Notes under the pieces: generated by a model
What the model was told of the DNA's origin: nothing
Seen by the model: the letters and a program-made list of their open reading frames with translations, nothing else
Database searches by the model: none
NCBI GenBank assembly: GCA_964532425.1
Contig: CAZHIA010000001.1
Location: forward strand, 44,889-108,888
Direction of reading: 5' to 3'
Origin: an uncultured Candidatus Saccharibacteria bacterium
GTDB lineage: Bacteria > Patescibacteriota > Doudnabacteria > UBA920
DNA length: 64,000 nt
Shown: one piece after another, positions 8,120 to 27,516 of the stretch
How the letters are laid out: each line of letters starts with the position of its first letter
Position numbering within the stretch: position 1 is the first letter of the stretch
Program-made: the position numbers and the translations under genes

Positions 8120-8170
8120 CTGGGGTGACTTCGAGGCAGGCGTCAGTGTCTCAAGTGCTAAGGAGGCTGC

Positions 8171-9465: not shown

Positions 9466-9759
9466 AACCTGCCTCCTTGTATGAAGGCATTGTAGCAGAA
9501 AACGGCAATGGAGTGCAGGCCGCTGGCCTGCTGATAAATAAAAAGATTCAAAAATAGAAATATAAAAAATTATAAGAACTGTAGATTATGTAGGTAATAT
9601 CTACCCTACAATTTCTTGGATCTTTCTATTGGCAGGGCACGGCCCTGCACTACAAGAACAGGGGTGCATATGAATACCACTGTAGTACAGGCCCGTGGCC
9701 TGCTCCGTGTAGGGGCAGGCAGGAGGCGCCCTCTTCTTAAAGCACCAAAAACAAATCTC

Positions 9760-10052: not shown

Positions 10053-10453
10053 ACGGCGGGCAGCTGCCGCTTGCCCCTACGGGGACCAGGTCTTTGCAGC
10101 GTAGGGGCCGCCGACCCTGCCTGCCGGCAGGCAGGAGGCGTCCTCTCGCACAAAGCCTAAATCCTAAATTTTAAATCCTTAATCCGTATTGATAGCCAGT
10201 CTCTTCAAAACCCGGTACAATGAGAGCAGGCTGTGACTTAATTTTTCTAGTTTCTATTTTTCTATTTATTATGTTGGCAATTATTTTCGGCCTTGTTGCT
10301 ATCGGAATATTCGTCCTGTTTCGGGAGGCGTTTTCGCATGCACCGACTTCGCCGCAGCGGCCAAAGCCGGCCGCTTCGGGTGATGCCCTCGTTCGCTTCG
10401 GCCTCGGGCAGCGCCGCAAGAGTCAGCGCCGATTGCATATAGAAAAGCCGGCC

Positions 10454-11755
10454 ATGGAGTTTAATCCCGAGAACAGCCGGGCTTTGGATTTGCTCGAGAA
10501 TTCCCGCCGCAATATTTTTCTGACCGGGCGGGCCGGGGCGGGTAAATCTACCTTGCTCATGTACTTTCGCGCTACTACCAAAAAGAACGTGGCTGTGGTC
10601 GCGCCGACCGGTGTGGCTGCCATTAACGTGCAGGGCCAGACCATTCATCGCTTCTTCCGCTTTAAGCCGGATATTACGCTCGACAAAGTGCCGAAGTATT
10701 TGGACCGCGACCGGGATCTCTATAAAGAATTAGACACACTGGTCATAGACGAGATCTCCATGGTGCGGGCTGATCTGCTCGATTGTGTGGATGCGTTCTT
10801 GCGTATGCACGGACCGGAACCGGGCAAGGTTTTCGGCGGCGTGCAAATGGTGTTCATGGGAGACTTATACCAATTGCCGCCCGTGGTCAAGGACGAGGAA
10901 GAGGAAATTTTCCAGACGCACTATCGCACGGAGTTTTTCTTTTCCGCCAAGTGCCTGCAGCAGACCACGCTCATTCCGCTGGAACTGACCCGCGTGTACC
11001 GCCAGAGCGATGAAGGCTTTAAGAAAATTTTAAACGACATCCGCGACGGTACAGTCAGTGACCAGGACTTGGCAGTTTTGAACTCCCGCGTTGACCGCGA
11101 TTTTTCGCCTGCACAGGAAGAGGGTATTGTCCGCGTATGGTTGGTACCGACGCGCGCCCAAGCCGCGGAAATTAATGGCTGGCACATGGAACATCTGCCT
11201 GGCGCCATGCGCATGTACCACGGTTCGGTAGAGGGTAGGTTTTCCGAGCGCGACATGCCAACACCGTTGGAATTGGAGTTGAAAGTCGGTACGCAGGTTA
11301 TGCTGCTCAATAACGACAGCAAGGGGCGCTGGGTTAACGGCGACGTGGCCCGGGTGGTAGATTTGCGCCAGGATTTTATCCGCGTCAAGTTCGACGACGG
11401 CACGTTCGATGATGTCGAACGCCATACCTGGGACGCGTTCCGTCATACGCTCGAAAAGGGGAGTAATAAGATTGTCGCGGTTTCCGACGGCAGTTTTACC
11501 CAGTTTCCGGTCAAGCCGGCTTGGGCGTTAACCATCCACAAGTCGCAAGGTAAGACGTATGATCATGTGGCCATCGATTTAAGCCGCGGTACTTTTGCGG
11601 CCGGCCAGGCTTATGTGGCCTTGTCGCGCTGCCGCACGCTTGAAGGTCTTATTTTAAAAACCCCGCTGCGCCGCCATCACGTTATGATAGACAAGGAAGC
11701 CGCGGAGTTCATGAAGGTGGTATCATTTTTAGCGGAGAAGGGACATATCCCCTAA
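10454..11755 (+). CDS. PIF1-family 5'-3' DNA helicase (paralog 1)
   Basis: Walker A GRAGAGKST and the C-terminal TIHKSQGKTYDHVAIDLSRGTFAAGQAYVALSRCRTLEGL motif. Start set at 10454 by alignment with paralog 2. The track's start at 10220 adds a doubtful TM segment that overlaps an AT-rich repeat. Confidence 0.8.
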   Translation: MEFNPENSRALDLLENSRRNIFLTGRAGAGKSTLLMYFRATTKKNVAVVAPTGVAAINVQGQTIHRFFRFKPDITLDKVPKYLDRDRDLYKELDTLVIDEISMVRADLLDCVDAFLRMHGPEPGKVFGGVQMVFMGDLYQLPPVVKDEEEEIFQTHYRTEFFFSAKCLQQTTLIPLELTRVYRQSDEGFKKILNDIRDGTVSDQDLAVLNSRVDRDFSPAQEEGIVRVWLVPTRAQAAEINGWHMEHLPGAMRMYHGSVEGRFSERDMPTPLELELKVGTQVMLLNNDSKGRWVNGDVARVVDLRQDFIRVKFDDGTFDDVERHTWDAFRHTLEKGSNKIVAVSDGSFTQFPVKPAWALTIHKSQGKTYDHVAIDLSRGTFAAGQAYVALSRCRTLEGLILKTPLRRHHVMIDKEAAEFMKVVSFLAEKGHIP

Positions 11756-13801: not shown

Positions 13802-13812
13802 TGGTATAAGAG

Positions 13813-13843
13813 CCTATCCATCCTATCCATCTTATTCATCCTA
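13813..13843. repeat. period-9 tandem array (CCTATCCAT x3-4) directly after the radC stop and upstream of the PIF1-2 start
   Basis: cctatccat cctatccat cttattcat cc... Confidence 0.8.
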
Positions 13844-13865: not shown

Positions 13866-15968
13866 ATGTCCGAAGACAATTCTCCTCTTTACACGAAATC
13901 CTATTACGAAGAAGTCCGTAAAATCCACCCCCGCATGGGCAAGAAGTGGACTGCGGACGAAGACCAACAGCTTAAGAATGCCTACCTGCAATTCAAGGCG
14001 CAGCCGTCGGCGAATTTTGACGTGTTCCTGCAGGAACTGGTCGAGCAGTTCGGCAGGGCTTCGGGCGGCATTAAGGCAAGGTTAGCTAAATATTTTGAGG
14101 ACGTCCCGGGTTGGGACTATGGCCGCGATGCGTTCCGGCAGGAACAGCTCAATAAGGAGGCAGAGTCAGCCATTCCCAAAGACGACGAGGAGGTGCTGGT
14201 TCGGGCGTACCGCTTGTATGAAGAATCAAAAAATGAGACGTACATGGCCTTTTTACGGCGCATGTCGGAACGCCTTGGAAATATTGAGGGGAGGCTTATA
14301 ACGCACCGTTTATCGCAATTGGTCGGCGAGGTAAAAAAGTACAATAAGGAAGATGTAGGGGCGGCCAGTGGCCGCCCGCACCCAGGGAGTGATCGCGAAA
14401 AAAATACTCCCGACGTCTCAGATATCGACTTTTCTGGCAACCTTGAAGCAGGCGAGGCCTTGCGCCTTATGGAGCAGACCCGGGAAAATCTGTTTTTGAC
14501 CGGAGAGGCTGGAACCGGGAAATCGACCCTGCTGCAGTTCTTCCGCTATACCACCCAAAAGAACGTGGTGGTGCTCGCTCCGACCGGGGTGGCTGCTTTG
14601 AATGTGGAAGGCCAGACCATTCATTCGTTTTGCGGGTTCGGTCCGGATATTACGGTGCACAAGGTCAAGAAGCTAGGCCCATGGGCGCCCAAGCGCAAGC
14701 TGCTTAATAAGCTCGATGCGATTATTATAGACGAGATCTCCATGGTCCGCGCTGATCTGCTTGATTGCGTGGACAAGTTTTTGCGCATGAACGGGCCGAC
14801 TGGGACGCAAGCCTTTGGTGGCATTCAAATGATTTTCATCGGTGATCTTTATCAACTCCCGCCAGTATCCGCCGAAAGGCCTGTTGGCCAATCAGGCGGA
14901 CCCGCCACAATGTCCCGTTTTGGCGGGGCTTTGGGCGGGGAGAAGGGTTTTTATGGTGATCCTCTCCTGTCCCAATACGCCTCTCCTTATTTTTTTGATG
15001 CCCTTGCATATAAGCAGACGAAGTTCCACCACATCGCCCTCAAGCAAATGTACCGGCAGAAGGACCGGGTGTTCATCGACGTGCTGAATGCGGTGCGCAA
15101 CAATGCAGCCATGCAGGAACATTTGACCGTCTTAAACCAGCGCGCGCAGACTGCGGGTGCCAAGTTCACGTTCGAGAAATTTGCAATTTATTTAACTACT
15201 ACGAACCAACGCGCGCGGCAAGTGAATAATTTTTTCATTGAGCGCTTGAAGGGAGAGCTGAAGACTTTTCAGGGGCGCACTGCCGGAACCTTTGAGGACC
15301 GAGAGCTGCCCACAGACTTGAATTTGCAAATCAAGGTCGGCGCCCAAGTCATGATGCTCAACAACGACCGCAAGAAGCGCTGGGTCAATGGCACTATGGG
15401 GAAGATAGTTGCCATAGGTTTTGGTAATACCGATGTTGAGCAGGCCCGCGGCCTGCCCTCCCGGATGGAGAATGGTAGTGTGGTTTCTTCTCCCCAGGCG
15501 TGGGAAGATGCCCCGCAGGGGCAGAGAGGTCGAACCCTGGAAGCTGAAGATCAATCTCCCGAACTCACCTACGAACCCATCTCTCCATATGACTACCGCC
15601 CGCAATCTTCTGGCATGGTGGTAACCGTGGAATTGGAAACAGGGGAGACCGTAGACGTGACGCCGTTCACCTGGGAGATGCACAAGTTCGTGCTCGACAA
15701 GGAAACGGAGAAAATAGACATTCAGACCACGGGCACGTTCACGCAATACCCGTTCAAGTTGGCTTGGGCCGTGACCATACACAAGGCCCAGGGCAAGACG
15801 TTCGACAAGGTGTATGTGGATCTTTCCACCGGCACCTTCGCGCACGGCCAGCTCTACGTTGCCCTCTCGCGCTGCCGCACTCTGGAAGGTCTCTTCCTCC
15901 GCCGTCCCATCACCCCCGCCGACATCCTCCTCGACCAGCGCATTGTCCAATTTCTGAATTCGTTATAA
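13866..15968 (+). CDS. PIF1-family DNA helicase (paralog 2) with an ~200-aa N-terminal extension containing a Myb/SANT-like motif, plus two internal insertions
   Basis: Core ~65% identical to paralog 1 (GEAGTGKST ... TIHKAQGKTFDKVYVDLSTGTFAHGQLYVALSRCRTLEGL). N-terminus has GKKWTADEDQQLKNAYLQF...GGIKARL. Confidence 0.8.
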   Translation: MSEDNSPLYTKSYYEEVRKIHPRMGKKWTADEDQQLKNAYLQFKAQPSANFDVFLQELVEQFGRASGGIKARLAKYFEDVPGWDYGRDAFRQEQLNKEAESAIPKDDEEVLVRAYRLYEESKNETYMAFLRRMSERLGNIEGRLITHRLSQLVGEVKKYNKEDVGAASGRPHPGSDREKNTPDVSDIDFSGNLEAGEALRLMEQTRENLFLTGEAGTGKSTLLQFFRYTTQKNVVVLAPTGVAALNVEGQTIHSFCGFGPDITVHKVKKLGPWAPKRKLLNKLDAIIIDEISMVRADLLDCVDKFLRMNGPTGTQAFGGIQMIFIGDLYQLPPVSAERPVGQSGGPATMSRFGGALGGEKGFYGDPLLSQYASPYFFDALAYKQTKFHHIALKQMYRQKDRVFIDVLNAVRNNAAMQEHLTVLNQRAQTAGAKFTFEKFAIYLTTTNQRARQVNNFFIERLKGELKTFQGRTAGTFEDRELPTDLNLQIKVGAQVMMLNNDRKKRWVNGTMGKIVAIGFGNTDVEQARGLPSRMENGSVVSSPQAWEDAPQGQRGRTLEAEDQSPELTYEPISPYDYRPQSSGMVVTVELETGETVDVTPFTWEMHKFVLDKETEKIDIQTTGTFTQYPFKLAWAVTIHKAQGKTFDKVYVDLSTGTFAHGQLYVALSRCRTLEGLFLRRPITPADILLDQRIVQFLNSL

Positions 15969-15970
15969 AT

Positions 15971-16033
15971 CCTATCCATCCTATTCATCCTATCCATCTT
16001 ATCAATCCTATCCATCTTATAAATCCCATTTCA
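15971..16033. repeat. period-9 tandem array (7 units: CCTATCCAT, CCTATTCAT ...) directly after the PIF1-2 stop
   Basis: Seven consecutive 9-bp units; this array is the source of the spurious NPIHPIHPIH ORF. Confidence 0.85.
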
Positions 16034-16180
16034 CCCCTTCTTCCCCTTGGCTTCCATTAACCCCCCTTTACCCCCTTAAACCCCTTTTCACCCTTTCTTC
16101 CCTCACTCTGTGTCATTCCGGAATCCGAGTGCAGCCGAGGATGTCCGGAATCCAGTTTATTTCCCCATAAATTCTCTTAT

Positions 16181-16208
16181 TTGACAGGAATTTACCCGGT
16201 GCTATGAT
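16181..16208 (+). promoter_or_regulatory. near-consensus sigma70 promoter
   Basis: TTGACA, 16-nt spacer, TATGAT. Confidence 0.6.
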
Positions 16209-16214
16209 GGAAAA

Positions 16215-16302
16215 AACAACAAACATGCCAGTCGAGTCTCCCGTAAATAAAATAATAACTTAAACCAAAGCTCCAAGCCGCCGTTTTCGGCGGCTTTGTT
16301 TT
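16215..16302 (+). ncRNA. candidate small RNA (~85 nt) defined by a promoter and terminator
   Basis: Consensus promoter at 16181-16208. Terminator GCCGCCG-ttttc-GGCGGC followed by TTTGTTTT at 16277-16302. Contains only a 19-codon ORF with no RBS. Confidence 0.4.
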
Positions 16303-16489
16303 CCGGGCCTGCTCTCCTTCTACCGAAGGTCCAACGTAGCCTCGTGCGAAGTTGGAATAGGAGGAGTGCCCGCCGACTCGTCCGCCGTAGCTTTAGCGAA
16401 GGGGGAAGGCGGGGGAAGTGGTACGGGGTCTGTAGTGCCCCTCTCCCTTTCAAGGGAGAGGTAGGGTGAGGGTATTAATTAAAAATCCT

Positions 16490-16840
16490 ATGACAAAAAT
16501 TCAAAAAATCTGGCTCTCTATCTTCATTGCCATGTTTGCATTGCCTGAGATTTTATGGAGTCCAGTAATAAATCTGATTTACGAATTTTTACAAAATACT
16601 AATAAAGTTCAACCCTGGCGTGATAATTTTTTGATGAATAGCGATAACATTGCCTGGCTTAGTGTAATATACCTTATTCAATTGGTGGGATTGCTGGGGT
16701 GTTTGATGTTGATTATTTCACTTAAGCCAAAGAATATAGCTATGTGGTTAGTAAACTCGGTATTGATAATATGCAGTCTCACAGTTGCATTCTTGTTATT
16801 TGCCTCATTGACAATTGGGGGTCATGGAATTGGTTTCTAA
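16490..16840 (+). CDS. hypothetical small membrane protein (AT-rich gene)
   Basis: Three or four hydrophobic helices. Low GC compared with the flanks. ATG 16490; the track calls GTG 16466. Confidence 0.5.
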   Translation: MTKIQKIWLSIFIAMFALPEILWSPVINLIYEFLQNTNKVQPWRDNFLMNSDNIAWLSVIYLIQLVGLLGCLMLIISLKPKNIAMWLVNSVLIICSLTVAFLLFASLTIGGHGIGF

Positions 16841-16883
16841 CATACTCTAAAGATGCCCGTTAAATATAAGTATTCTAAATTTT

Positions 16884-19718
16884 ATGAGAGTTAGTAAACT
16901 TAATAGGTGTTTATTAGTGTTGGGCTGCTTAGCTCTACTAGGCGGTCAAGTAAGAATAGCGGCGAATGCTACTAGTGCTATTGTAGTCTGTGACCCAGGC
17001 TATAATGCTGGTAACTCTCCTATACAAGGTATTCCTACATATGATTACGGAACGGACGGAATGGTCCGTTTTCATTTTACCTTGGATGGTAATGGCTGGG
17101 CTCCCTCAAATAATTTTGTGGCCGTGTATGGAGAGAATTGTGAGTACCTTTATACAAAAGGTTATACGTACGCAAGTTCAGGTAGTATTCCGCAAGGTGT
17201 AATTCATCTTATGGTGAAAGCGCAAGAAGTAACACCAGGAGGCGGGTGGTATGTGTTCACAGCTTATGACGAGGACACAAACGAACCGGTAGGACTGGGA
17301 GGTATGCCGACCCAAGTAAACGAGCCGTTTGTTAGCTTTGCAATTTTACAGAACCCTAGCTACTACGTGTACAACGGAGCCAAAAGCCCTGCTGTGCCAG
17401 TGAGAGATCCGACACGAATGATTTCTAAGACCCCGGTATTGATTGTGCCAGGGGTGATGGGTACTGAATTAAAGATGGAGGGTGAGTTACTTTGGGTTGA
17501 TCTAGATAGAATGTTGGGTGATGTTGGTGACCAGTTTATGGATAAGTTGCAATTTAAGGAAGATCTTCAACCCGAAAATGAGAGTGTGTCACCAGATCAA
17601 GTAATTGCGCAAAAACCGTTATTTGATTACACGGGCTCTTTGGCTGATGAATTTAAAACCCAAGGGTATACCGAAAATCAGGATCTCTTTACTTTCCCAT
17701 ATGACTGGCGTTACGGGGTAACTGGAGTCGTAGATACTACAACAGGTAAAACAACGGTCGACTTACTGCAGCAAAGAATTGAGGAAATTAGTCAGCAAAC
17801 AGGAAGTTCTCAGGTGGATGTAATCGCACATAGCACTGGTGGCTTATTGGTGAAAAAGTATGTTATGGATCACCCGGATTCTCATCGGATTCGTAAGGCT
17901 GTATTTGTAGGTGTGCCAAACGTCGGCGCTCCCAAAGCCATAAAAACTCTTTTGATGGGGGATGGGTTTGGTATCCCTTGGCTTGCCGACGGAGAAATGC
18001 TAAAACTGTCTCAAAATCTTCCGGTTGTTTATGACCTCATGCCTAGTGCTCAATATTACTCTGTTCATACTAGCCCTATAAACATCCTTTCGGGTAAGGT
18101 TTTTGTTTCCGAGATGAAAAATCTTTCTTATGATGAATCCATTTCTTATTTGACAGAAAAAGGATTGAACATTTCTGCAATAACACAATCGCAGTCATTG
18201 CATTCAAGATCGTTCGATAGTTATGACATGAGGACGGCAGGTGTGGATGTATATAATATTGTCGGGTGTAAATCAGGGACTGTGACGCAAGTGTTGGACT
18301 ACGAACATCAAGACGGATCCCATATTAGATATGACGTGTATGAAGAAGGGACAGGTGATGGAACAGTACCGCTCGAGAGTTCAACTTATTTGCCAGTAAA
18401 CGATGACCATAAATTTTATGCGTTAAAGACAGAGCATGCGAAAATGTTGAGCCAGGATGGTGTTCGCCAGACAATTGTTAATGTTGTGTCCGGAGCCAAT
18501 CTTGCAGTCAGTGATAAAGCTGTTACCTCAGACATTGGAAAGTGTAAGTTGAAGGGGAAGGCTGTGGCTATATATAGTCCAGTTGATATTCAAATTTCCG
18601 ACCAATTTGGTAATAAACTAGGACTCGCGGAGGATGGGAGTATACAAAACACAATTCCCGGTGCGGATTTTGAAATCATGGGTGAACACAAGTATGCATT
18701 TTTGCCCGATGAGGATGGTGAAGTATATTCTTTAAATTTAAAAGGTACCGGGACCGGGCTCTTTACCGTGAAAGTTGATGATATTGATGGTTCGGTGATA
18801 GGCTCAAAAATCTTTGCGAGTCTCACCGTTACCCCTTCGCTAGTGGGTACCTTGTCTTTAACTGGGGACACTAAGATGGATTTGGACACGAATAATGATG
18901 GTTCAGTGGACCAGGAACTAACACCTTCAACACTTTCAAACCCCTCCCAATCCCAAGACTATCTTCCTCCCATCTCCACCTCCACCCTTTCTGGCATTAT
19001 GGGACAGGCGGGGTTTTATAGGAGCGAGGTGGTGGTGGCGCTGAATGCGACGGATACGGTGGTGTCGGGACTTGAGGATCAGACTTCCGGTGTTTTGGAC
19101 GTGCGCTATGCGCTGGACGACCATTCATCCAATCCATCCTATTCTTCCTATGCCAGCCCTATCACTGTTTCCACCGAAGGTCCTCACACCCTCTCGTTCT
19201 ATTCCGTGGACCGGGCGGGGAATAGGGAAGCGGTGCAGACGATTAATTTTACCATCGACAAAACCGCGCCAGAGGTTTCTTTGCAGTTTGACCAGAATGC
19301 AAAGGATCTGGTTTTCAGCGGCATCGACAATTCTCCGGTCTCGGTCAGCGACAAGGACGACATTATTACCGTAACCGATCAGGCCGGCAATGCCACAGTT
19401 ATGAAGCTCAAAGACAAGAACCGCAAGCGCTCGCTGAAGGCTGAAATTAAATCCATTAGCTACAACGGGCAGGTTGCGGATCTTTCTAAGAACAGCATGG
19501 CGTTCTCCTGGGCCTATGACAGAAAGGACAAAGACAAGCTTGTCTTGCTTTCGCAAATCGTGACTGCGAAAAAAGACTACCTCGTCTCAGCCATCTACAA
19601 TGGCAAGTCTACGGTGCTGCTTGGCCGTGACGCTTCGGGCAAAATAAAGAAAACTCTCCCCGGCCTGACTCTCCTCAAAATTGCCACCTCCACCGGCGAC
19701 TTGAATTGGAGTTATTAG
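16884..19718 (+). CDS. secreted LCAT/PGAP1-like alpha/beta hydrolase, fused through an S/T/P linker to a chitobiase-C-like Ig domain and a C-terminal region
   Basis: Signal peptide. PVLIVPGVMGTELK is LCAT-like. Nucleophile elbow VIAHSTGGL. A YYSVDRAGNRE-type beta-sandwich motif. The 5' 2 kb is AT-rich and the 3' 0.8 kb is GC-rich. Confidence 0.65.
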   Translation: MRVSKLNRCLLVLGCLALLGGQVRIAANATSAIVVCDPGYNAGNSPIQGIPTYDYGTDGMVRFHFTLDGNGWAPSNNFVAVYGENCEYLYTKGYTYASSGSIPQGVIHLMVKAQEVTPGGGWYVFTAYDEDTNEPVGLGGMPTQVNEPFVSFAILQNPSYYVYNGAKSPAVPVRDPTRMISKTPVLIVPGVMGTELKMEGELLWVDLDRMLGDVGDQFMDKLQFKEDLQPENESVSPDQVIAQKPLFDYTGSLADEFKTQGYTENQDLFTFPYDWRYGVTGVVDTTTGKTTVDLLQQRIEEISQQTGSSQVDVIAHSTGGLLVKKYVMDHPDSHRIRKAVFVGVPNVGAPKAIKTLLMGDGFGIPWLADGEMLKLSQNLPVVYDLMPSAQYYSVHTSPINILSGKVFVSEMKNLSYDESISYLTEKGLNISAITQSQSLHSRSFDSYDMRTAGVDVYNIVGCKSGTVTQVLDYEHQDGSHIRYDVYEEGTGDGTVPLESSTYLPVNDDHKFYALKTEHAKMLSQDGVRQTIVNVVSGANLAVSDKAVTSDIGKCKLKGKAVAIYSPVDIQISDQFGNKLGLAEDGSIQNTIPGADFEIMGEHKYAFLPDEDGEVYSLNLKGTGTGLFTVKVDDIDGSVIGSKIFASLTVTPSLVGTLSLTGDTKMDLDTNNDGSVDQELTPSTLSNPSQSQDYLPPISTSTLSGIMGQAGFYRSEVVVALNATDTVVSGLEDQTSGVLDVRYALDDHSSNPSYSSYASPITVSTEGPHTLSFYSVDRAGNREAVQTINFTIDKTAPEVSLQFDQNAKDLVFSGIDNSPVSVSDKDDIITVTDQAGNATVMKLKDKNRKRSLKAEIKSISYNGQVADLSKNSMAFSWAYDRKDKDKLVLLSQIVTAKKDYLVSAIYNGKSTVLLGRDASGKIKKTLPGLTLLKIATSTGDLNWSY

Positions 19719-19727
19719 TCTTATACG

Positions 19728-19772
19728 TCCTATTTGTCCTATTAGACCTATCTGCCCTATAGGTCCTATTCA
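19728..19772. repeat. period-9 tandem array (5 units, GTCCTATTn-like) directly after the hydrolase stop
   Basis: tcctatttg tcctattag acctatctg ccctatagg tcctattca. Confidence 0.75.
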
Positions 19773-19812
19773 AAATGCGCTATAATTAAAGCAAATTATA
19801 TTTAAACTTTTT

Positions 19813-20463
19813 ATGCAAGAAAAAGGATTCAGCGGGGCAGAGGCAAGCCTTGAGACCGAGTCTAAATTGTTTGGGGTTATAACGGAAGACCAAGCACGGG
19901 CTATTTGCGGCTCGCCGGAAAAGTTCGAGCAGGTAAAAGATGACTTTGTATCTCATGGCCAGCATGAATACTTGCTCAAAGGCGGTGGCAAGCTGGTCTT
20001 TCATCCCCGGGAGAACGAATGGACCATGAGTGGTTATGGAGACCGCAGTGATATTAAAGACGTCTTAGAAGCGGTGGAAGCGGGCTATACCGGTTTTATA
20101 GACGGCGAGCATGGGACTATGGAATATATAGACGGTGCGGACATTTCCAAAGCCCCTGATCGGGAAAAAATTTACAGCCTGGCTAGTCGCGTGGGGGTGG
20201 AGATCTCACTGTTCAACCGCGCCTTCCTGCAGGTCATAGAAGTTCGTCCGCATTTGAAGTTTAAAATTTATTCCAGCGGGTTTGGTGGGGAGCATAGCAT
20301 TTTGGAAGTTCAAAACGCGATCAAGGCAGGTAAGCCACTCCTGGCCGAAGATGCCGAAGAGCGGGTCAAGGACAGCATTGCCAGAATGGACAGTTTCCAA
20401 AGAATGTATGGCGAACCACTTTACGACCCCAACTCCATCGACAACCGTCCTAAGAAGAAATAA
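19813..20463 (+). CDS. hypothetical protein (216 aa)
   Basis: Clean ORF; no recognisable domain. Confidence 0.5.
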   Translation: MQEKGFSGAEASLETESKLFGVITEDQARAICGSPEKFEQVKDDFVSHGQHEYLLKGGGKLVFHPRENEWTMSGYGDRSDIKDVLEAVEAGYTGFIDGEHGTMEYIDGADISKAPDREKIYSLASRVGVEISLFNRAFLQVIEVRPHLKFKIYSSGFGGEHSILEVQNAIKAGKPLLAEDAEERVKDSIARMDSFQRMYGEPLYDPNSIDNRPKKK

Positions 20464-20654
20464 CCTCCCTGTTTTAAATGTAATGCAGGCTCTTGGCCTG
20501 CTTGCAGGTGCAGTACTCTCCTCCTGGGATAGGAGGAGTACCCGCCACAGGCGGGGGAGGTGGTATAGAGAAGTTGCGATGTAAATGTAGTGCAGTCCCT
20601 TGGCCTGCCTGCTTGTAGGGAACGGTTTGAAACCGTTCCCAACGGATCCAAGAT

Positions 20655-20885
20655 ATGTCCAAACATTCCAAAGAATCAGAACAATATCTGCGCGATATGC
20701 AGGACTGGCAGAACAAGCAATACCTCCCCGGGGCCTATACCGGCCACGAGATGCCTTTTGCAGTTAAACAATTGGGTAAGAAAAAATGGTTCCGCATTTG
20801 GACAGTTTTCTATCTTATTGTCTTTTTTGTCTTGGTCATTTTTGGTTTGGTGCAAATGGCAATTTATATTCTGCATTCGCGATAG
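20655..20885 (+). CDS. hypothetical small membrane protein (76 aa, one TM)
   Basis: ORF with a C-terminal hydrophobic helix; preferred over the overlapping 20590 ORF, which reads through repeat sequence. Confidence 0.4.
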   Translation: MSKHSKESEQYLRDMQDWQNKQYLPGAYTGHEMPFAVKQLGKKKWFRIWTVFYLIVFFVLVIFGLVQMAIYILHSR

Positions 20886-20958
20886 CTTTATGGCATTTTT
20901 GTCATCAATTTGGTATTTTTTCCTTAGCCCGCCTAACGGGGTTCGGGCAGCGAGGAAA

Positions 20959-21489
20959 ATGGTCAAGCGCATTCATAAGCGGTTGTTGCGGCTGATTTTT
21001 AATCCTACATATTGGGCAGCAGTGGATTACTTCCATATGGATGATGAAGAGGAAGAAAAGATTGTTAGCCTCTTGCGGTTTAATGCCCTTGCCATGACCC
21101 AACTTATGTTGGATTTTGCCGCAGATTCAGTGCATAACCCGGATCAGCGTGAGTTGTACCGCGAGACTAAGAACTGTTTGATTTCGGAATTCTTGGCAAC
21201 GCTTCAGCCGGACGATGACGAAGAGGGGGACGGAGATGCCGGATGGCGACAAATGGTAGCCATCCAGTACGAGCAATTGCGGCAGACGCATGATGCTTTA
21301 AAAGACCAACTGCCCGATCCTAAGCTTATCAACAACTGGGTTCTCGTTACCACGCTGAATACGTACATTAATATTCGGGAGAAAGAACCGGACTCTGAAG
21401 ATGACTTGTTCGAACTGCTTTATAATACCTTTGGAGAAATGTCCTCCGATGTCCTTGATCCTGTCATTAGCGAACTAAAACGGATTTGA
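20959..21489 (+). CDS. hypothetical acidic protein
   Basis: GAGGA immediately upstream of ATG 20959. The 5' part of the track's ORF 20590.. lies in a repeat, so it is trimmed. Confidence 0.45.
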   Translation: MVKRIHKRLLRLIFNPTYWAAVDYFHMDDEEEEKIVSLLRFNALAMTQLMLDFAADSVHNPDQRELYRETKNCLISEFLATLQPDDDEEGDGDAGWRQMVAIQYEQLRQTHDALKDQLPDPKLINNWVLVTTLNTYINIREKEPDSEDDLFELLYNTFGEMSSDVLDPVISELKRI

Positions 21490-21644
21490 GATTTGAGCTG
21501 TTTCCCTCTTCTCCTTCCAGGAGAAGATGTCCGCCTCCGGCGGACAGATGAGGTGATTATGTAGTGCAAGCCATTGACCTGCTGTTTCCTGTAGGGGCGG
21601 ATAGTATCCGCCGAAATCAAATAGTGTCATCCGGAATAAAAATA

Positions 21645-21674
21645 CCAGCACCAAAATTTGGTGCTGGCTTTTGT
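21645..21674. terminator. bidirectional terminator
   Basis: CCAGCACC-aaaattt-GGTGCTGG followed by CTTTTGT. Confidence 0.7.
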
Positions 21675-21699
21675 AATGGCACACGAGTGCCGTTTTGTG

Positions 21700-22779
21700 T
21701 CAGACTGTTGCACGTTTGAGAGTAGCAGGCAGTGGCTCCATTTCCATGACCGCTTTGCGGAGTGCTTCGGCTGCACGCTCGGGCGGCAGGGGGTTAATGT
21801 AGTACCCGGTGCTGAATTCGAATCCGGCAACCTTGGTGATGCGCGGAATAATGCGCAGGCGCCAGCGGAAGAATTCCTCGGGCTTGCAGTACACGTTGGG
21901 CGGGGCTTCCTCGAGGAACATATTAAACGGCGGCAAGTACTTGAGGACCTTGTCCAGGGCCTTGAACGACATACTCATCATGGTGGCCAGTTCCTGGAAC
22001 TGGGCGCGGTTGTCGGTCAGCCGGGCCGTACTCTTCAGGGGCAGGATGGTCATTTCGAACGGGACCTTGCTGGCATACGGGCAGTAGCAGAGGAAATTGC
22101 CGCTGTGGCGCACGACCAGTTTGTGCTGGTCGGCCTGGTTGATGGCGTCCTGGAAAATGTCGCGGTTGTGCTGCTGCTGGTATTCGCGGCAGCGGAACAG
22201 CCGGTGATTGATCTTCTCCGGAACATCCGGCAAGGCAATAATCTGCCAGTGCGGATGCTCCAGGCTGGCGCCGGCTTCGCTGCCGAAGTTCTTGAATAGC
22301 TGGACGTAGCGGATCCGCTCGTGGCTGTACAGCGCGGAGAAGCGGTCGTCGGCCACCTGCAGGACGTTGAGGAGTTTCCAGACCGGCATGGCCGAGATTT
22401 CCTCGTTGTGCACGGCGGTCTCAATAATGACTTCGTGCGCGCCGAACGCGTTGGTAATAACCGAACTGCCGGCATCCTGAATGACGAACGCGGACCGCTC
22501 TTCGGGCGTGGCGGCAGGGTACTTGTTGGGCACGACGCGGAGCGTCCACTTCTGGCCGGGTTCGCCGAGCCGGATAATTTCCGGCGGGGGAACCATGTCC
22601 TCGTTACCGGTACAGAACGGGCACTTGGGATCGTGGCACGGCTTTTCGAGCTTGGCTTCGACATCAACTTTCTTTGCAAAATCGTCGGGGCGCATGGCCC
22701 GGTCGGTTGCAACAATGACCGGAGTCTCGCTGATCAATGATCGCCTGATATCTGACATACAGGCCTCCTTTGCACCCAT
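21700..22779 (-). CDS. galT: galactose-1-phosphate uridylyltransferase (HIT superfamily)
   Basis: CPFCTGNE zinc motif and the SLEHPHWQI HPH active-site motif. Confidence 0.8.
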   Translation of the reverse strand: MGAKEACMSDIRRSLISETPVIVATDRAMRPDDFAKKVDVEAKLEKPCHDPKCPFCTGNEDMVPPPEIIRLGEPGQKWTLRVVPNKYPAATPEERSAFVIQDAGSSVITNAFGAHEVIIETAVHNEEISAMPVWKLLNVLQVADDRFSALYSHERIRYVQLFKNFGSEAGASLEHPHWQIIALPDVPEKINHRLFRCREYQQQHNRDIFQDAINQADQHKLVVRHSGNFLCYCPYASKVPFEMTILPLKSTARLTDNRAQFQELATMMSMSFKALDKVLKYLPPFNMFLEEAPPNVYCKPEEFFRWRLRIIPRITKVAGFEFSTGYYINPLPPERAAEALRKAVMEMEPLPATLKRATV

Positions 22780-22835
22780 TGTAGTCCAAAGCTAACTTAA
22801 TAGCAAAGGCTGGTGAAATAACCTTCTCCACATAG

Positions 22836-23200
22836 GTGTAGTGCAGGCCCTCTTGTCCGCCGAAGCCTTGGCGAAGGTGGATGACCTGCTCAGCCCCTGT
22901 AGGGGCGGATACCATCCGCCCGGGATTAAAGCAGACGAGGTAGAATGGTAAGTTTAAGCTGTCAGTAAATGTAGTGCAGGCCCTCGGCCTGCTGGGAGAT
23001 GGCGTTTCTCCCTCTCCTTATTCGCAGATCTGCCATAGTTTTAACGTAGGAGGACATAGGAGAGGATGAAGGTGAGGTTATTGACACAGAGAGTACTGAA
23101 GGTAGAGGTTGCAGTCACCCCCTCTCCTTGCATAGGAGAGGGTAGGGGTGAGGTTATTTGGTGTATGTAGTGCAGGCCCTTGGCCTGCAAGGTGCAGGAG
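22836..23200. repeat. cluster of hairpin repeats: family D (TGTAGTGCAGGCCCTTGGCCTGC; copies at 22838, 22968 and 23165), family E (22897) and CTCTCC/GGAGAG palindromes (23108-23160)
   Basis: Several dispersed families sit together here. D copies elsewhere: 9632, 9681, 20478, 20585, 21560, 46459 and 46517. Confidence 0.8.
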
Positions 23201-23536: not shown

Positions 23537-23798
23537 TCTGCATTTTCTCCTCTCCTTATGAGGAGAGGGATTAAGGGAGAGGTTGCAGTCACCCCCTCTC
23601 CTTGCATAGGAGAGGGTAGGGGTGAGGTTATAAACCCTCCTCTCTTTGCTCGAAGATCCAACGCAGCCTCGCGCGAAGTTGGATAAAGAGAGGGGTTAGG
23701 GGTTCCGTTGCATTTCCCCCTCTCTTTGTCTAAAGAGAGGGGTTAGGGGTGAGTTTAAAGCTAGGCACTATTTACTCGTTACTATTTACTCGTTCCCA

Positions 23799-24561: not shown

Positions 24562-27507
24562 ATGAGAATAACAGACTGCCACGCTAAATATTTTGCTTAC
24601 GAGTTGACTAAGCGGTGTTCGTCTGATAGTTTAGAAAAATTATCTTCTACTTTATCAAACGCGCAAGTCGATCTAAATCCGCACCAAATTGAAGCGGCTC
24701 TTTTTGCGTTCCGCTCACCATTATCAAGAGGTGCAATTTTAGCCGACGAAGTGGGCTTAGGCAAGACCATTGAAGCCGGTCTGGTGTTGTCCCAAAAATG
24801 GGCGGAGCGTAAACGTAATCTACTGCTAATAGTACCCTCAAGTTTGCGCAAACAGTGGAATGCGGAATTACAGGAGAAGTTTTTTTTGCCCTCGACAATT
24901 TTAGAAACCAAAACATTTAATCAGTATATCAAAGATGGAAACCTAAATCCGTTTATCCAAGAAGACAAAATAATAATTTGTTCTTATCACTTTGCTCGTT
25001 CCAAGGCGCCTTATATTAAACAGACTAAATGGGACCTGGTAGTAATTGATGAAGCTCATAGGCTACGCAATGTCTATAAGACCAGCAATAAAATCGCTAA
25101 AGAGATTAAAACTACACTGGCTGATTTTCCAAAAATCCTCTTAACGGCAACCCCACTACAAAATTCCCTTCTCGAACTTTATGGTCTTGTTAGTATTATC
25201 GATGACCATGTGTTTGGTGATTTGAAAAGCTTTAAAGCCAACTACGCAAGAGTTTCCCGGCAGCAAGATATCTACGAAAGCGAGGTCGGCTTAGTAGAAC
25301 CAAAGCAGGAGATGTTTTCAGACTTGCGGGACCGACTAAAAACTATCTGCATCAGAACGCTTAGGCGGCAGGTACTGGAATATATCAAATATACCAAGCG
25401 TATCCCTTTAACCCAGGACTACGTTCCGACTGAACAGGAAATTGAGTTATATAACGGCATGTCTGCGTATTTACAAAGACCCAGACTTTTTGCCCTACCT
25501 TCCAGCCAGCGCCAACTCATTACTCTTATTTTACGCAAATTACTTGCTTCTTCGTCTTTTGCCATTGCTAGCACACTCAATGGCCTGGTATATAAATTAT
25601 CTAAACTGATTGAAGAAGCCGAGAAGCAGAAGGCTTCAGCTCAAGATGCTGATATTGCTGGAATTGACCAAAACTTTGAAAACTTCGAAGATGTCTCTGA
25701 TGAGTGGATCGATGATGAAGAAGAGGAAGAAACCGGGGCTGATAAGAAGAGTGTTATTTATACCGAAGAAGAGATCGCTTTAATGAAGGAAGAAAAAGCT
25801 GAACTGGAAAAATATCGGGAATTGGCAAAAAAAATCTGGACCAATTCCAAAGGGGATGCTCTGCTGATTGCTCTGCAAAAAGGCTTCGAGATGACCGAAG
25901 ATCTTGGAGCCAAGAAGAAGGCCATCATTTTTACAGAATCGACAATAACCCAAAATTACCTGTTAAACTTGCTTTCTGAAAATGGTTACAAAGATAAAAT
26001 TGTACTCTTTAATGGCTCCAATAATGATGACAAGTCAAAGCAGGTTTATGCCGACTGGATCAAAGCCAATAAGGACACGGATAAAATAACCGGCTCTAAG
26101 ACGGCTGATATCCGCGCTGCGCTGGTAGAGTATTTCCGTGATGATGCGGAGATTATGATAGCAACTGAAGCTGCCGCTGAAGGTGTTAACCTACAATTCT
26201 GCTCCCTGCTTATAAATTATGATTTGCCATGGAATCCTCAAAGGATTGAACAGCGCATTGGTCGCTGTCATCGTTATGGACAAAAGCACGACGTGGTGGT
26301 TATTAACTTCGTAAACCGTAAAAATGCCGCTGATCAGAGAGTTTACGAACTATTGGACCAAAAGTTTAGCCTATTCAAAGGTGTGTTTGGTGCAAGCGAC
26401 GAAGTACTTGGCAGTATTGAATCCGGGGTAGATTTTGAAAAGAGAATCGCTGATATTTACCAGACTTGCCGCACTGAAGAAGAGATTAATACAGCATTCG
26501 ACAACCTGCAGAAGGATATGGATGAAAGCATCCAGGACAGCCTACGGGAAACCAGGCAAAAATTATTAGAAAACTTCGATACCGAAGTACACGAAAAGCT
26601 AAAAGTTAATCTAAAGGAAACTCAGGCCTGTCTTGATACCTTTGAACACTGGCTTTGGGACATTACCAGATATTATCTCAAGGAAAATGCGGATTTCTCC
26701 GAGCATGAGTACTCATTTACCTTAAAAAATAATCCTTTCCCCAAGGAGTCTATTGACGCTGGTCCTTACAGGATTGGTAAGAATATTGAAGATGCTCACA
26801 TATACCGTCCTGGTCACCCGTTGGCACAAAGGATATTAAACCAAGTTAAATTAAAACCTATCGAGGAAGCAGAGGTTATATTTGATTATTCCAACAATCC
26901 AACCATCGTTTCAGTATTGAAACCACTGGTAGGTAAAAGCGGAGTGATGAAAATTTCTAACTATACAGTCGAAGCTTTTGAGGCCGAGGATAATATTATT
27001 GCCTCTGCTATCGATGAATCTGGAGAAGCTATTAACCCCGAGGTTGTGAAAAAACTTTTTTCTTTGTCGGCAGAACATAAGAAGTCAGCATTAGTACCGC
27101 CGGATGTTAAAACTCACCTTGAAAAAATTGAGCAGGAAACGGTTGCTGTAACATCCACTAATATTGCCGAACGCAATAGCACTTTTTTTGACAATGAAGT
27201 CGATAAACTTGAAAAGTGGGCGGACGACGTTAAAAAATCTTTAGAACTGGATCTAAAAAAACTGGATATTGAGATTAAAGCGTCCAAAACAAACGCAAAA
27301 AAAATCGTAAACTTGGAAGATAAGCTAAAAACACAGCGAGAAATTAAAGAAATGGAGAAAAAAAGGAACGAAATGCGAAAAAAGCTTTATGATGCTCAGG
27401 ATGAAGTGGAAGAAAAAAAAGAAGAACTTATAAATAAAGTCGAGGCACAATTGCACCAGAGATCGCATTTAGAACCACTATTTACGATTTACTGGAGAGT
27501 GGTTTAA
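24562..27507 (+). CDS. SNF2-family helicase (SNF2_N plus HELICc) with a C-terminal coiled-coil extension; first gene of the low-GC island operon
   Basis: LADEVGLGKTIEAG (motif I), DEAHRLRN (motif II), and ...GVNLQFCSLLINYDLPWNPQRIEQRIGRCHRYGQKHDVVVINFV (motifs V and VI). The C-terminus has heptad-like KE-rich repeats. Confidence 0.85.
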   Translation: MRITDCHAKYFAYELTKRCSSDSLEKLSSTLSNAQVDLNPHQIEAALFAFRSPLSRGAILADEVGLGKTIEAGLVLSQKWAERKRNLLLIVPSSLRKQWNAELQEKFFLPSTILETKTFNQYIKDGNLNPFIQEDKIIICSYHFARSKAPYIKQTKWDLVVIDEAHRLRNVYKTSNKIAKEIKTTLADFPKILLTATPLQNSLLELYGLVSIIDDHVFGDLKSFKANYARVSRQQDIYESEVGLVEPKQEMFSDLRDRLKTICIRTLRRQVLEYIKYTKRIPLTQDYVPTEQEIELYNGMSAYLQRPRLFALPSSQRQLITLILRKLLASSSFAIASTLNGLVYKLSKLIEEAEKQKASAQDADIAGIDQNFENFEDVSDEWIDDEEEEETGADKKSVIYTEEEIALMKEEKAELEKYRELAKKIWTNSKGDALLIALQKGFEMTEDLGAKKKAIIFTESTITQNYLLNLLSENGYKDKIVLFNGSNNDDKSKQVYADWIKANKDTDKITGSKTADIRAALVEYFRDDAEIMIATEAAAEGVNLQFCSLLINYDLPWNPQRIEQRIGRCHRYGQKHDVVVINFVNRKNAADQRVYELLDQKFSLFKGVFGASDEVLGSIESGVDFEKRIADIYQTCRTEEEINTAFDNLQKDMDESIQDSLRETRQKLLENFDTEVHEKLKVNLKETQACLDTFEHWLWDITRYYLKENADFSEHEYSFTLKNNPFPKESIDAGPYRIGKNIEDAHIYRPGHPLAQRILNQVKLKPIEEAEVIFDYSNNPTIVSVLKPLVGKSGVMKISNYTVEAFEAEDNIIASAIDESGEAINPEVVKKLFSLSAEHKKSALVPPDVKTHLEKIEQETVAVTSTNIAERNSTFFDNEVDKLEKWADDVKKSLELDLKKLDIEIKASKTNAKKIVNLEDKLKTQREIKEMEKKRNEMRKKLYDAQDEVEEKKEELINKVEAQLHQRSHLEPLFTIYWRVV

Positions 27508-27516
27508 GCAAGGTTT

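What the first reader, a model, noticed from the sequence alone, without database searches (positions are those of the whole stretch)
16460..18930. AT-rich block ends inside an ORF: compositional chimera in a secreted LCAT-like hydrolase
GC content drops sharply from 16460 to about 18930. This covers a small membrane-protein gene and the N-terminal ~680 codons of the 944-aa hydrolase: signal peptide and the LCAT/PGAP1-like alpha/beta hydrolase domain.

It then returns to genome-typical high GC exactly at a Ser/Thr/Pro-rich linker (..TPSTLSNPSQSQDYLPPISTST..). That linker precedes a chitobiase-C-like Ig domain.

This suggests a foreign catalytic domain was recombined onto a resident C-terminal module.
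Basis: seen in the sequence. Interest (0 to 1): 0.5.

Follow-up and report, generated by a model that had tools for sequence, protein, structure and literature searches.

The report
Mosaic secreted lipase gene in Patescibacteria
A secreted phospholipase-like gene of an ultra-small (Patescibacteria) bacterium has imported-looking DNA in its first 690 codons and in a small partner membrane gene, but native-looking DNA in its last 250 codons. This is an ordinary recombination mosaic, though relatives of this gene show similar splices, often near the same point.

Summary
GC falls from 0.53 to 0.415 at about 16461-16481. It recovers inside the 944-aa ORF (16884-19718). GC3 is 0.38 for codons 1-695 and 0.65 for codons 696-944, and host genes are about 0.65. 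The change-point LLR is 27.2, against a maximum of 9.9 in 5000 permutations. An independent Logan contig reproduces both junctions exactly.

This is not a new domain fusion. The C-terminal 250 aa is present in all 120 listed homologues, and the small membrane-protein gene lies next to the hydrolase in at least 18 other loci. The family is Patescibacterial, and the host is itself a Parcubacteria-type Patescibacterium. Both halves hit the same family at no more than 58% identity, and no donor was found.

The best reading is that a segment [small TM gene + first ~690 codons] from a lower-GC lineage replaced part of a resident homologue. The splice lies at the domain boundary before an Ig-like domain.

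Relatives show the same behaviour. Protein or DNA breakpoints fall at about aa 260, 548, 707, 710 and 756. GC3 change-points fall at about aa 653-682 in three other loci.

The protein is an LCAT/LPLA2-type serine hydrolase, probably acting on lipids outside the cell. I rate it a new member of a known kind, of moderate interest.

The parts
16461..16481 (.). Left compositional junction, where host-like 53% GC switches to the 41.5% GC block. It lies about 10-30 nt upstream of the small TM gene start.
   Evidence: Nucleotide change-point 16473, LLR 25.7, support reaching 16481 at most. Sequence read. Sequence to the left (16324-16402) shares 33-nt repeats with 23651-23683 and 45082-45114.
16490..16840 (+). 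Small membrane-protein gene (116 aa, three hydrophobic segments, no Pfam, NCBIfam or PADLOC family). It is the conserved partner of the hydrolase and part of the low-GC block.
   Evidence: GC3 0.38. Codon-usage score -0.24. Hydropathy peaks at about residues 8, 57 and 90. Homologues lie next to the hydrolase gene in at least 18 other loci, with three tandem copies in L010.
16884..19718 (+). ORF of 944 aa encoding a secreted LCAT/LPLA2-type serine hydrolase with C-terminal beta domains. The whole gene is intact.
   Evidence: AlphaFold2 mean pLDDT 89.3. Foldseek top hit LPLA2 4x90, TM 0.75 normalised to the target.
16884..18968 (+). Low-GC (imported-looking) 5' segment of the ORF, codons 1-695. 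It encodes the signal peptide (helix 6-18), a variable N-terminal beta-sandwich (about 52-172), the alpha/beta hydrolase (about 185-540), a beta-sandwich (557-668) and a connecting stretch (669-695).
   Evidence: GC3 0.38. Codon-usage score -0.21. Domain limits from the model's secondary structure. Residues 1-170 are recognisable in only 19 of 120 homologues.
17832..17834 (+). Codon of Ser317 in the motif AHSTGG, the predicted catalytic nucleophile. Asp492 (18357-18359) and His518 (18435-18437) are the likely partners.
   Evidence: S317, D492 and H518 are invariant in the 57-sequence alignment. S317 aligns with the residue mutated in LPLA2-S165A, entry 4x92. Coordinates checked.
18936..18969 (+). 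GC3 change-point (codons 685-696), the inferred recombination joint. It lies between the second beta-sandwich and the Ig-like domain.
   Evidence: Best change-points at codons 685-696. Max LLR 27.2 against a null maximum of 9.9. Codon-by-codon view.
18969..19718 (+). Host-like 3' segment, codons 696-944. It encodes an Ig-like (OmpL47-type) domain (696-791) and a terminal beta domain (797-943).
   Evidence: GC3 0.65 and codon-usage score +0.19, both equal to host genes. NCBIfam NF047446, 61.8 bits, residues 726-791. Present in all 120 homologues.
19719..19769 (+). Array with a 9-nt period (..CCTAT..) directly after the hydrolase stop codon. The same kind of array follows the RadC and PIF1 genes to the left of the block.
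   Evidence: Pattern search gave 13 matches against 0.13 expected, all between 13812 and 19769. Sequences compared.

Best explanation
**What it is.** The AT-rich block (about 16461-18968) is a piece of DNA from a lower-GC Patescibacterial lineage. It carries a small three-helix membrane-protein gene and the first ~690 codons of a secreted LCAT/LPLA2-type hydrolase. I infer that it replaced the equivalent part of a homologous two-gene cassette already present in this ~52% GC Parcubacteria-type genome.

**Where the joins are.**
- The right-hand crossover lies inside the hydrolase gene, at the boundary between the second beta-sandwich and the Ig-like domain.
- The last 249 codons and the downstream DNA keep the host's codon usage.
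- The left-hand join lies in intergenic DNA just upstream of the small gene.

**How it probably happened.** One homologous anchor and one illegitimate join, after uptake of foreign DNA, would give this result. That mechanism is inferred, not shown.

**Consequences.**
- The product is a full-length, apparently functional enzyme with the family's usual architecture, so no new domain combination was created.
- Segmental exchange of this kind recurs in the family. Breakpoints often fall near this domain boundary, and a second cluster lies at about aa 260.

**Function (inferred).** The protein is exported. It acts as a phospholipase A or acyltransferase on lipids outside the cell, possibly host membrane lipids. 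The N-terminal part and the small membrane partner behave as the exchangeable unit.
For: **Shown in this window.**
- A step in GC3 (0.38 to 0.65) at codons 685-696, far beyond chance.
- The small TM gene and the short spacer share the low GC.
- The C part has host codon usage.
- Both flanks have the same composition. They share dispersed short repeats and the 9-nt arrays.
- A Logan assembly of run SRR11567520 is identical over 14147-23133, across both junctions.

**The architecture is conserved, so this is a replacement and not a fusion.**
- All 120 homologues carry the C part.
- TM-gene homologues lie next to the hydrolase in at least 18 loci.

**Precedent in relatives.**
- L002 and L085 are 85-96% identical in DNA from about aa 710 to the gene end, and 86.5% identical in a patch upstream. 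They are only 59-74% identical across aa 175-700.
- L085 carries a truncated copy of L002's TM gene followed by a second, different TM gene. The exchanged unit there is again [TM gene + ~700 codons].
- L082 and L089 share an internal patch of 85-95% identity at aa 611-760, inside genes that are otherwise about 60-70% identical.
- Five recent mosaics map to aa 260, 548, 707, 710 and 756.
- Significant GC3 change-points occur in homologues from other higher-GC genomes: L023 at aa 682, L070 at aa 653, L022 at aa 658 (reversed direction) and L010 at aa 338 with a further rise.
- Most family members sit in 34-41% GC genomes, so an incoming piece would normally be AT-rich.

**Function.**
- PF02450 hit and fold match to LPLA2 and LCAT.
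- Ser317 aligns with LPLA2 Ser165. S317, D492 and H518 are invariant.
- An N-terminal signal-peptide-like helix.

**Context from papers.**
- CPR bacteria lack complete lipid synthesis and may derive lipids, including lysolipids, from other cells (PMC7242380).
- Patescibacteria retain homologous-recombination genes and competence machinery (PMC12455944).
Against: - No donor and no unreplaced 'resident' allele was found. Neither half has a relative above 58% identity in 5.8 billion proteins, in 1.84 billion representatives or in JGI metagenome contigs.
- The nearest neighbours of the two halves are not significantly different. For this gene, composition is the only direct evidence.
- The junction is not at a peak of sequence conservation. 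What served as the homologous anchor is therefore unclear.
- One precedent, L084, could be a chimeric scaffold. It equals L089 on the left and L082 on the right, and the three share a near-identical stretch.
- Reads were not available, so coverage across the junctions could not be checked.
- Enzyme activity, export and any role in lipid acquisition are untested.
Confidence: 0.68

Rival explanations
1. The whole two-gene cassette arrived as foreign low-GC DNA. Its 3' end (codons 696-944) was later overwritten by gene conversion from a resident, high-GC paralogue elsewhere in the genome.
For: - Some genomes carry two paralogues. L027 and L029 come from one MAG.
- L082 and L089 show an internal conversion-like patch around aa 611-760.
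- The C part's host-like codon usage fits this reading as well as the main one.
Against: - No paralogue exists in the 64-kb window.
- The host-like composition continues without a break from codon 696 into the downstream intergenic array and genes. That is simpler if the 3' end never moved.
- The rest of the genome could not be examined.
Confidence: 0.14
2. Assembly artefact. The contig joins reads from two organisms that both carry a homologue of this gene, so the chimera does not exist in any cell.
For: - The window comes from a metagenome-assembled genome.
- A related contig (L084) looks like the left part of L089 joined to the right part of L082 at a shared near-identical stretch. Such misjoins are therefore conceivable in this family.
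Against: - A low-GC block embedded in host-like DNA needs two misjoins, and one of them would lie in non-homologous intergenic DNA.
- Both flanks share composition, codon usage and short repeats.
- A second assembler (Logan) gives an identical 8,987-bp contig across both junctions.
- The reading frame and all invariant residues are intact.
- No sequence close enough to share assembly k-mers was found anywhere.
Confidence: 0.06
3. No transfer took place. The 5' two-thirds of the cassette is kept AT-rich in place by selection or a local mutational bias. This would explain why several higher-GC genomes show the same low-to-high direction.
For: L010, L023, L070 and this window all have an AT-rich 5' part and a host-like 3' part. 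L010 shows a gradual rise rather than a step.
Against: - Homologues in other high-GC genomes are uniformly GC-rich (L037, L039, L017) or have the opposite polarity (L022).
- The step here is sharp and coincides with a domain boundary.
- Protein- and DNA-level mosaics with near-identical segments show that real exchange happens in the family.
Confidence: 0.07
4. One reading: a foreign catalytic domain was fused to an unrelated resident C-terminal module, creating a new architecture.
For: - The junction precedes an Ig-like domain.
- That domain type also occurs as tandem repeats in giant surface proteins.
Against: - Every one of the 120 listed homologues has the same N part plus C part, with invariant residues in both.
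- The full 249-aa C part is found only in this family.
Confidence: 0.03

Closest known systems
Mosaic genes made by intragenic recombination after DNA uptake (for example pneumococcal pbp2x/pspA and Neisseria penA; from general knowledge; pspA clades 'arose through recombination' per the abstract of PMC3018475)
   Same: A block inside an intact gene has a different history from the rest. The architecture is unchanged. The phenomenon recurs across related genomes, and the organisms are thought to be naturally competent (PMC12455944).
   Different: The block here is recognised by composition, not by identity to a known donor allele. The partners are far more divergent (about 50-60% protein identity among known members). 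The block also carries an upstream partner gene.
Human LCAT and lysosomal phospholipase A2 (LPLA2; PDB 4x90, 4x96)
   Same: Pfam PF02450. Same fold (TM 0.75 to LPLA2). PYDWR and AHSxG motifs. The nucleophile Ser aligns with LPLA2 Ser165.
   Different: About 19% identity. The bacterial protein adds an N-terminal beta-sandwich and three C-terminal beta domains, and has a small membrane-protein partner gene. Substrate and reaction are untested.
Unit of evolution spanning adjacent genes rather than one ORF (tandem paralogue clusters; PMC2568036, abstract)
   Same: The exchanged unit does not coincide with a gene. It runs from one gene into part of the next.
   Different: In that case the unit is the 3' part of one ORF plus the 5' part of the next, within a tandem paralogue cluster of one species. 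Here it is a whole small gene plus the 5' part of the next, exchanged between lineages.
Genomic islands in Patescibacteria (for example R-M islands; PMC12455944)
   Same: A low-GC insert in a higher-GC Patescibacterial genome. A defence island of similar composition lies 5 kb away in this window.
   Different: No integrase, tRNA or flanking repeats, and one boundary lies inside a coding sequence.

Membership tests
LCAT/LPLA2 family of alpha/beta hydrolases (Pfam PF02450) | Sequence match to the family model above the curated threshold | tested here: met
   PF02450: E 1.6e-19, 70.9 bits against a cut-off of 21, residues 251-431. The family profile matches LCAT and LPLA2 chains at E about 1e-10.
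LCAT/LPLA2 family of alpha/beta hydrolases (Pfam PF02450) | Same three-dimensional fold as solved members | tested here: met
   AlphaFold2 model with pLDDT 89.3. Foldseek top hits are LPLA2 4x90 (E 9e-16, TM 0.75 on the target, rmsd 3.7 A) and LCAT 4x96 (TM 0.69).
LCAT/LPLA2 family of alpha/beta hydrolases (Pfam PF02450) | Ser-Asp-His catalytic triad with the nucleophile in an AHSxG motif | tested here: inconclusive
   Ser317 (AHSTGG) aligns with LPLA2 Ser165. S317, D492 and H518 are invariant in 57 sequences and lie in the order Ser-Asp-His. Asp and His were not superposed on the solved triad.
LCAT/LPLA2 family of alpha/beta hydrolases (Pfam PF02450) | Phospholipase A or acyltransferase activity on glycerophospholipids | not testable with these tools
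   No biochemical data. Inferred from fold and motifs only.
Mosaic gene by recombination with a homologue from another lineage | A sharply bounded segment inside an intact gene that differs in composition or divergence from the rest | tested here: met
   GC3 changes from 0.38 to 0.65 at codons 685-696. LLR 27.2 against a null maximum of 9.9.
Mosaic gene by recombination with a homologue from another lineage | Both segments belong to one homologous gene family, so this is replacement and not fusion | tested here: met
   All 120 homologues contain both parts.
Mosaic gene by recombination with a homologue from another lineage | The segments have different nearest relatives, or a donor or parental allele is identified | tested here: inconclusive
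   The best relatives of either half are no more than 58% identical, and their rankings do not differ significantly. Discordant halves are clear in other family members.
Classical genomic island (integrase or tRNA associated) | Insertion next to a tRNA gene, with an integrase and flanking direct repeats | tested here: not met
   No tRNA in the 64-kb window. Neighbouring genes are PIF1 helicase, RadC and unknowns. Only short, weak repeats lie at the edges.
Phage- or plasmid-borne cargo | Close relatives on viral or phage records | tested here: not met
   IMG/VR holds only distant hits at 22-26% identity. GenBank phages give no match. Plasmids were not searched.

The most novel reading that the evidence does not exclude
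The pair [small membrane protein + N-terminal two-thirds of the lipase] is an exchangeable 'specificity cassette'. Patescibacteria swap it repeatedly, by transformation and recombination at one or two preferred joints. The C-terminal domains that tie the enzyme to the cell's own surface are kept. Under this reading, selection for new host or lipid targets, or for escape from host defences, drives the turnover. Tandem arrays of the small gene (three in L010, several in L087, a truncated older copy in L085) are the debris of successive swaps.
Probability: 0.15. Interest if true: 0.65.

Novelty: new member of a known kind. Interest (0 to 1): 0.4.

Why it matters
Patescibacteria cannot make their own membrane lipids, and where those lipids come from is an open question (PMC7242380). 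A widespread, exported LCAT/LPLA2-like enzyme with a dedicated membrane partner is a concrete candidate for taking lipids from other cells.

Part of this gene pair is exchanged between lineages, which suggests it is under pressure to change, as host-interaction genes often are.

For genome annotation, the case is a reminder that horizontally acquired segments need not respect gene boundaries. Gene-by-gene HGT screens would score this ORF as intermediate and miss the event.

As evolutionary mechanics it is not new. Mosaic genes are textbook in competent bacteria.

Tried and rejected
1. **Separate searches of the two halves for different taxa.**
   - Both halves hit one Patescibacterial family. 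The C-only search returned only short fragments at no more than 58% identity.
   - That search seems to favour proteins of similar length, since it did not return the query's own protein. I therefore relied on the full-length search and the representative search as well.
2. **GC of nearest neighbours as a proxy for donor and recipient.** The N-best loci L086 and L087 are 41-44% GC. The C-best locus with DNA, L088, is 36% GC. At about 55% identity this is uninformative.
3. **Rank-correlation test.** The query's N-versus-C correlation is -0.08 against a family median of 0.33. I do not lean on it, because all identities lie in a narrow band.
4. **Search for the source genome or close relatives.** GTDB representatives did not include the source genome. 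JGI metagenome contigs gave nothing for the C part. Look-up of the NCBI form of the protein failed.
5. **Paralogue or silent copy in the window.** None found.
6. **Remnant of an ArsR-type regulator upstream.** Such a gene is seen near the cassette in L010, L086, L087 and L088. The only window hit is at 36322-36534, which is unrelated to this locus.
7. **Idea that the joint is a conservation peak serving as a recombination anchor.** Rejected. Conservation around aa 676-720 is moderate.
8. **tRNA, Rfam and phage links.** No tRNA, no Rfam family near the locus and no phage relatives.
9. **Literature.** No paper in the held library links LCAT-like proteins to Patescibacteria.
Full report
**1. The observation**

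Sliding-window GC falls from about 0.53 to 0.37-0.46 between 16.4 and 18.9 kb, then returns to about 0.52.

- Over exact blocks, 13866-16460 is 0.531, 16461-18968 is 0.415 and 18969-19718 is 0.519.
- The left edge is sharp. The nucleotide change-point is 16473, with support no further right than 16481.
- The right edge is best seen at third-codon positions of the 944-codon ORF 16884-19718. GC3 is 0.38 for codons 1-695 and 0.65 for codons 696-944, with equally good change-points between codons 685 and 696.
- GC1 and GC2 hardly change, so amino-acid composition is not the cause.
- The change-point statistic is 27.2. In 5000 codon permutations the mean was 2.5 and the maximum 9.9.
- Thirteen other long genes of the window reach at most 9.6. 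Where those values are high, they reflect only the first 30-40 codons.
- Typical genes of the window have GC3 of about 0.65.
- I built two codon tables, one from host-like genes and one from the window's other low-GC island. The N part scores -0.21 per codon and the small upstream gene -0.24. The C part scores +0.19, the same as the adjacent PIF1 helicase gene.

**2. Is the sequence real?**

A contig assembled independently by Logan from run SRR11567520 (8,987 bp) is identical, with no mismatch, to window 14147-23133. It spans both junctions.

- The low-GC block is embedded. DNA on both sides has the same composition and codon usage.
- The two sides share short dispersed repeats. For example, 16324-16356 matches 23651-23683.
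- Arrays with a 9-nt period (..TCCTAT..) follow the stop codons of RadC (13812-13835), PIF1 (15970-16020) and the hydrolase itself (19719-19769). The pattern search gave 13 matches against 0.13 expected.
- A misassembly would need two wrong joins, one of them in non-homologous intergenic DNA.
- Reads could not be inspected, so a small residual doubt remains.

**3. What the genes are**

*The small gene.* The gene at 16490-16840 encodes a 116-aa protein with three hydrophobic segments. It matches no Pfam, NCBIfam or PADLOC family.

*The large ORF.* It has a signal-peptide-like N-terminus and an LCAT-type hydrolase domain (PF02450, 70.9 bits).

*The structural model.* An AlphaFold2 model built on 57 homologues is confident (mean pLDDT 89.3). 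It shows these elements:
- a helix at residues 6-18
- a beta-sandwich at about 52-172
- an alpha/beta hydrolase at about 185-540
- a second beta-sandwich at 557-668
- a well-ordered connecting stretch at 669-695
- an Ig-like domain at 697-791
- a final beta domain at 797-943

*Similarity to solved structures.* The best structural matches are lysosomal phospholipase A2 (4x90, TM 0.75 on the target) and LCAT. The T6SS lipase effector Tle4 ranks lower.

*Catalytic residues.*
- Ser317 in AHSTGG aligns with the residue mutated in LPLA2-S165A.
- S317, D492 and H518 are invariant in the family alignment.

*The Ig-like stretch.*
- It passes NCBIfam's OmpL47-type barrel model (61.8 bits against a cut-off of 40).

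**4. The family and the host**

The full-length search found 691 relatives. The best 120 are mostly 860-1000 aa long (a few are truncated or extended), and those that carry a source name are named as Patescibacteria: Nomura-, Staskawicz- and Doudnabacteria and 'Patescibacteria group'.

- All 120 contain the C-terminal 249 aa, at about the same identity (50-58%) as the catalytic part. Invariant columns occur in both parts.
- I searched the C part alone against 1.84 billion representatives. Its first ~105 residues are a repeat domain of giant surface proteins.
- The whole 249 aa matches end to end only in this hydrolase family, at no more than 58% identity.
- The small membrane protein is a conserved neighbour. 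Homologues lie beside the hydrolase gene in at least 18 loci. L010 has three tandem copies, and similar small genes precede the hydrolase in L082-L089.
- The host's MetK is closest (no more than 67%) to proteins named Ryan-, Jorgensen-, Lloyd- and Liptonbacteria. The host is therefore itself a Parcubacteria-type Patescibacterium of a poorly sampled lineage.
- 'Foreign' can thus only mean another lineage within the phylum.

**5. Evidence that this family recombines**

Across the 120 homologues, N-part and C-part identities are only loosely coupled (Pearson 0.46). Some pairs are grossly discordant, for example N 0.63 with C 1.00, N 0.55 with C 0.91, or N 0.81 with C 0.47. Sliding identity shows steps. 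A change-point scan over pairs with one nearly identical side gives breakpoints at query positions 260, 548, 707, 710 and 756.

At DNA level there are two informative comparisons.

- **L002 and L085**, from different studies:
  - They are 59-74% identical over aa 175-700.
  - They are 85-96% identical from about aa 710 to the end, and 86.5% identical in a patch upstream.
  - In L085 that upstream patch is a truncated copy of L002's small TM gene. It is followed by a second, different TM gene and then the divergent N part.
  - The exchanged unit is again [TM gene + ~700 codons], the same shape as the block in this window.
- **L082 and L089:**
  - These genes are about 60-70% identical, except for an internal stretch of 85-95% at aa 611-760.
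  - A third contig, L084, equals L089 on the left (3 mismatches in 10.3 kb).
  - It equals L082 on the right (100% over 8.6 kb), with the switch at about aa 710-784.
  - L084 may be a true recombinant or a chimeric scaffold. The internal patch shared by L082 and L089 does not depend on that.

**6. Composition in other members**

Most homologues sit in 34-41% GC genomes and are compositionally uniform. In higher-GC genomes the picture varies:

| Locus | Background GC | GC3 pattern | Statistic or position |
|---|---|---|---|
| L010 | 0.57 | rises from 0.22 to 0.70 along the gene | LLR 38.9 against null maximum 12.9 |
| L023 | 0.49 | steps from 0.38 to 0.57 | at aa 682 |
| L070 | 0.46 | steps from 0.36 to 0.55 | at aa 653 |
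| L022 | 0.58 | steps the other way, 0.65 to 0.42 | at aa 658 |
| L037, L039 | 0.55, 0.57 | uniformly GC-rich | none |
| L017 (N-terminally cut contig) | 0.51 (locus GC) | uniformly GC-rich | none |

- The window's gene is thus a sharp example of a recurring pattern.
- The existence of uniform GC-rich members, and of a reversed case, argues against a built-in compositional gradient.

**7. Best explanation and its limits**

*The inference.* A segment from a lower-GC Patescibacterium replaced the corresponding part of a resident cassette. That segment carried the small TM gene and the first ~690 codons of the hydrolase. The right crossover lies at the domain boundary before the Ig-like domain, and the left join lies in intergenic DNA.

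*What is shown:*
- the compositional step
- its significance
- its location at a domain boundary
- the conserved architecture
- real segmental exchange in relatives, several with breakpoints near the same position

*What is inferred:*
- the direction (N part incoming, C part resident), from the match of the C part to host codon usage and its continuity with host-type downstream sequence
- the mechanism (uptake plus one homologous anchor and one illegitimate join)
- the lack of amelioration as a sign of recency

*What is missing:* a donor and an unreplaced allele.
- Neither half has any relative above 58% identity.
- The nearest neighbours of the two halves do not differ significantly.
- The joint is not at a conservation peak. 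I attribute the clustering of breakpoints to tolerance of chimeras at domain boundaries rather than to a recombination signal. This is an inference.

**8. Function**

By fold and motifs the protein is a serine hydrolase of the LCAT/LPLA2 type with an export signal. I infer that it acts on phospholipids outside the cell.

- CPR bacteria lack complete lipid synthesis. They are proposed to obtain lipids, including lysolipids that phospholipase A can generate, from other cells (PMC7242380).
- The role of the small membrane partner is unknown. Anchor, chaperone or protection against the enzyme are all possible.

**9. Comparison with known systems, and novelty**

Mechanistically this is a mosaic gene of the kind long known in competent bacteria. 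Patescibacteria are reported to keep recombination and competence genes and to carry genomic islands (PMC12455944).

- No tRNA, integrase or phage link was found.
- I found no paper connecting LCAT-like proteins with Patescibacteria.
- The finding is a new member of a known kind.
- The added value is the family-level picture of a conserved two-gene cassette whose 5' portion is repeatedly exchanged.

**10. Verdict**

- Interest is moderate (0.4).

Noticed in passing
window 24562-35221: A second, larger low-GC island (GC about 0.39, GC3 0.29-0.39). It encodes a DrmD-like SNF2 helicase, an unknown 219-aa protein, a type III methyltransferase, a type III restriction enzyme, a PDC-S14 candidate defence protein and an unknown 252-aa protein. 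It is a horizontally acquired defence island only 5 kb from the mosaic gene.
   Followed up: partly
window 13812-13835, 15970-16020, 19128-19151, 19719-19769: Arrays with a strict 9-nt period (TCCTATNNN), all on the + strand. The search gave 13 matches against 0.13 expected. Three arrays sit immediately after the stop codons of RadC, PIF1 helicase and the hydrolase, and one lies inside the hydrolase C part. All are confined to this 6-kb stretch. Their function is unknown; terminator, binding-site array or recombination debris are possibilities.
   Followed up: partly
window 16181-16305: A near-consensus promoter (TTGACA, 16 nt, TG-TATGAT; 11 of 12 matches) is followed about 70 nt later by a strong hairpin plus T-run (16275-16296). 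This could be a short independent transcript, or a tiny ORF, in the host-like spacer just left of the low-GC block. No Rfam family matches.
   Followed up: no
window 5622-5735: A SAM-I riboswitch (RF00162, 55.5 bits) lies directly upstream of the S-adenosylmethionine synthetase gene (5772-6812) in this Patescibacterial genome.
   Followed up: no
window 10220-11755 and 13866-15968: Two PIF1-family helicase genes lie within 6 kb, separated by an M48 peptidase gene and a RadC gene. The second has a ~200-aa N-terminal extension without a family match. A PIF1 gene also lies downstream of the cassette in L089.
   Followed up: no
L010 1746-2845; L087 4250-5984; L085 601-1401: The small TM gene next to the hydrolase occurs as tandem arrays: three copies in L010 and several small genes in L087. 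In L085 a truncated older copy sits beside an intact one. An ArsR-type HTH gene is often nearby (L010, L086, L087, L088). The arrays may record successive cassette replacements.
   Followed up: partly
L082/L083, L084 and L089 (hydrolase gene at 8001-10913): Three contigs form a triad. L084 equals L089 upstream (3 mismatches in 10.3 kb) and L082 downstream (100% over 8.6 kb). The switch lies inside the hydrolase gene. This is either a natural recombinant or rearrangement between two loci, or a chimeric scaffold.
   Followed up: partly
window 19813-21489: The genes just downstream of the hydrolase (216 aa, and ORFs within 20590-21489) have intermediate GC3 (0.51-0.55). They match no Pfam, NCBIfam or PADLOC family.
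   Followed up: no
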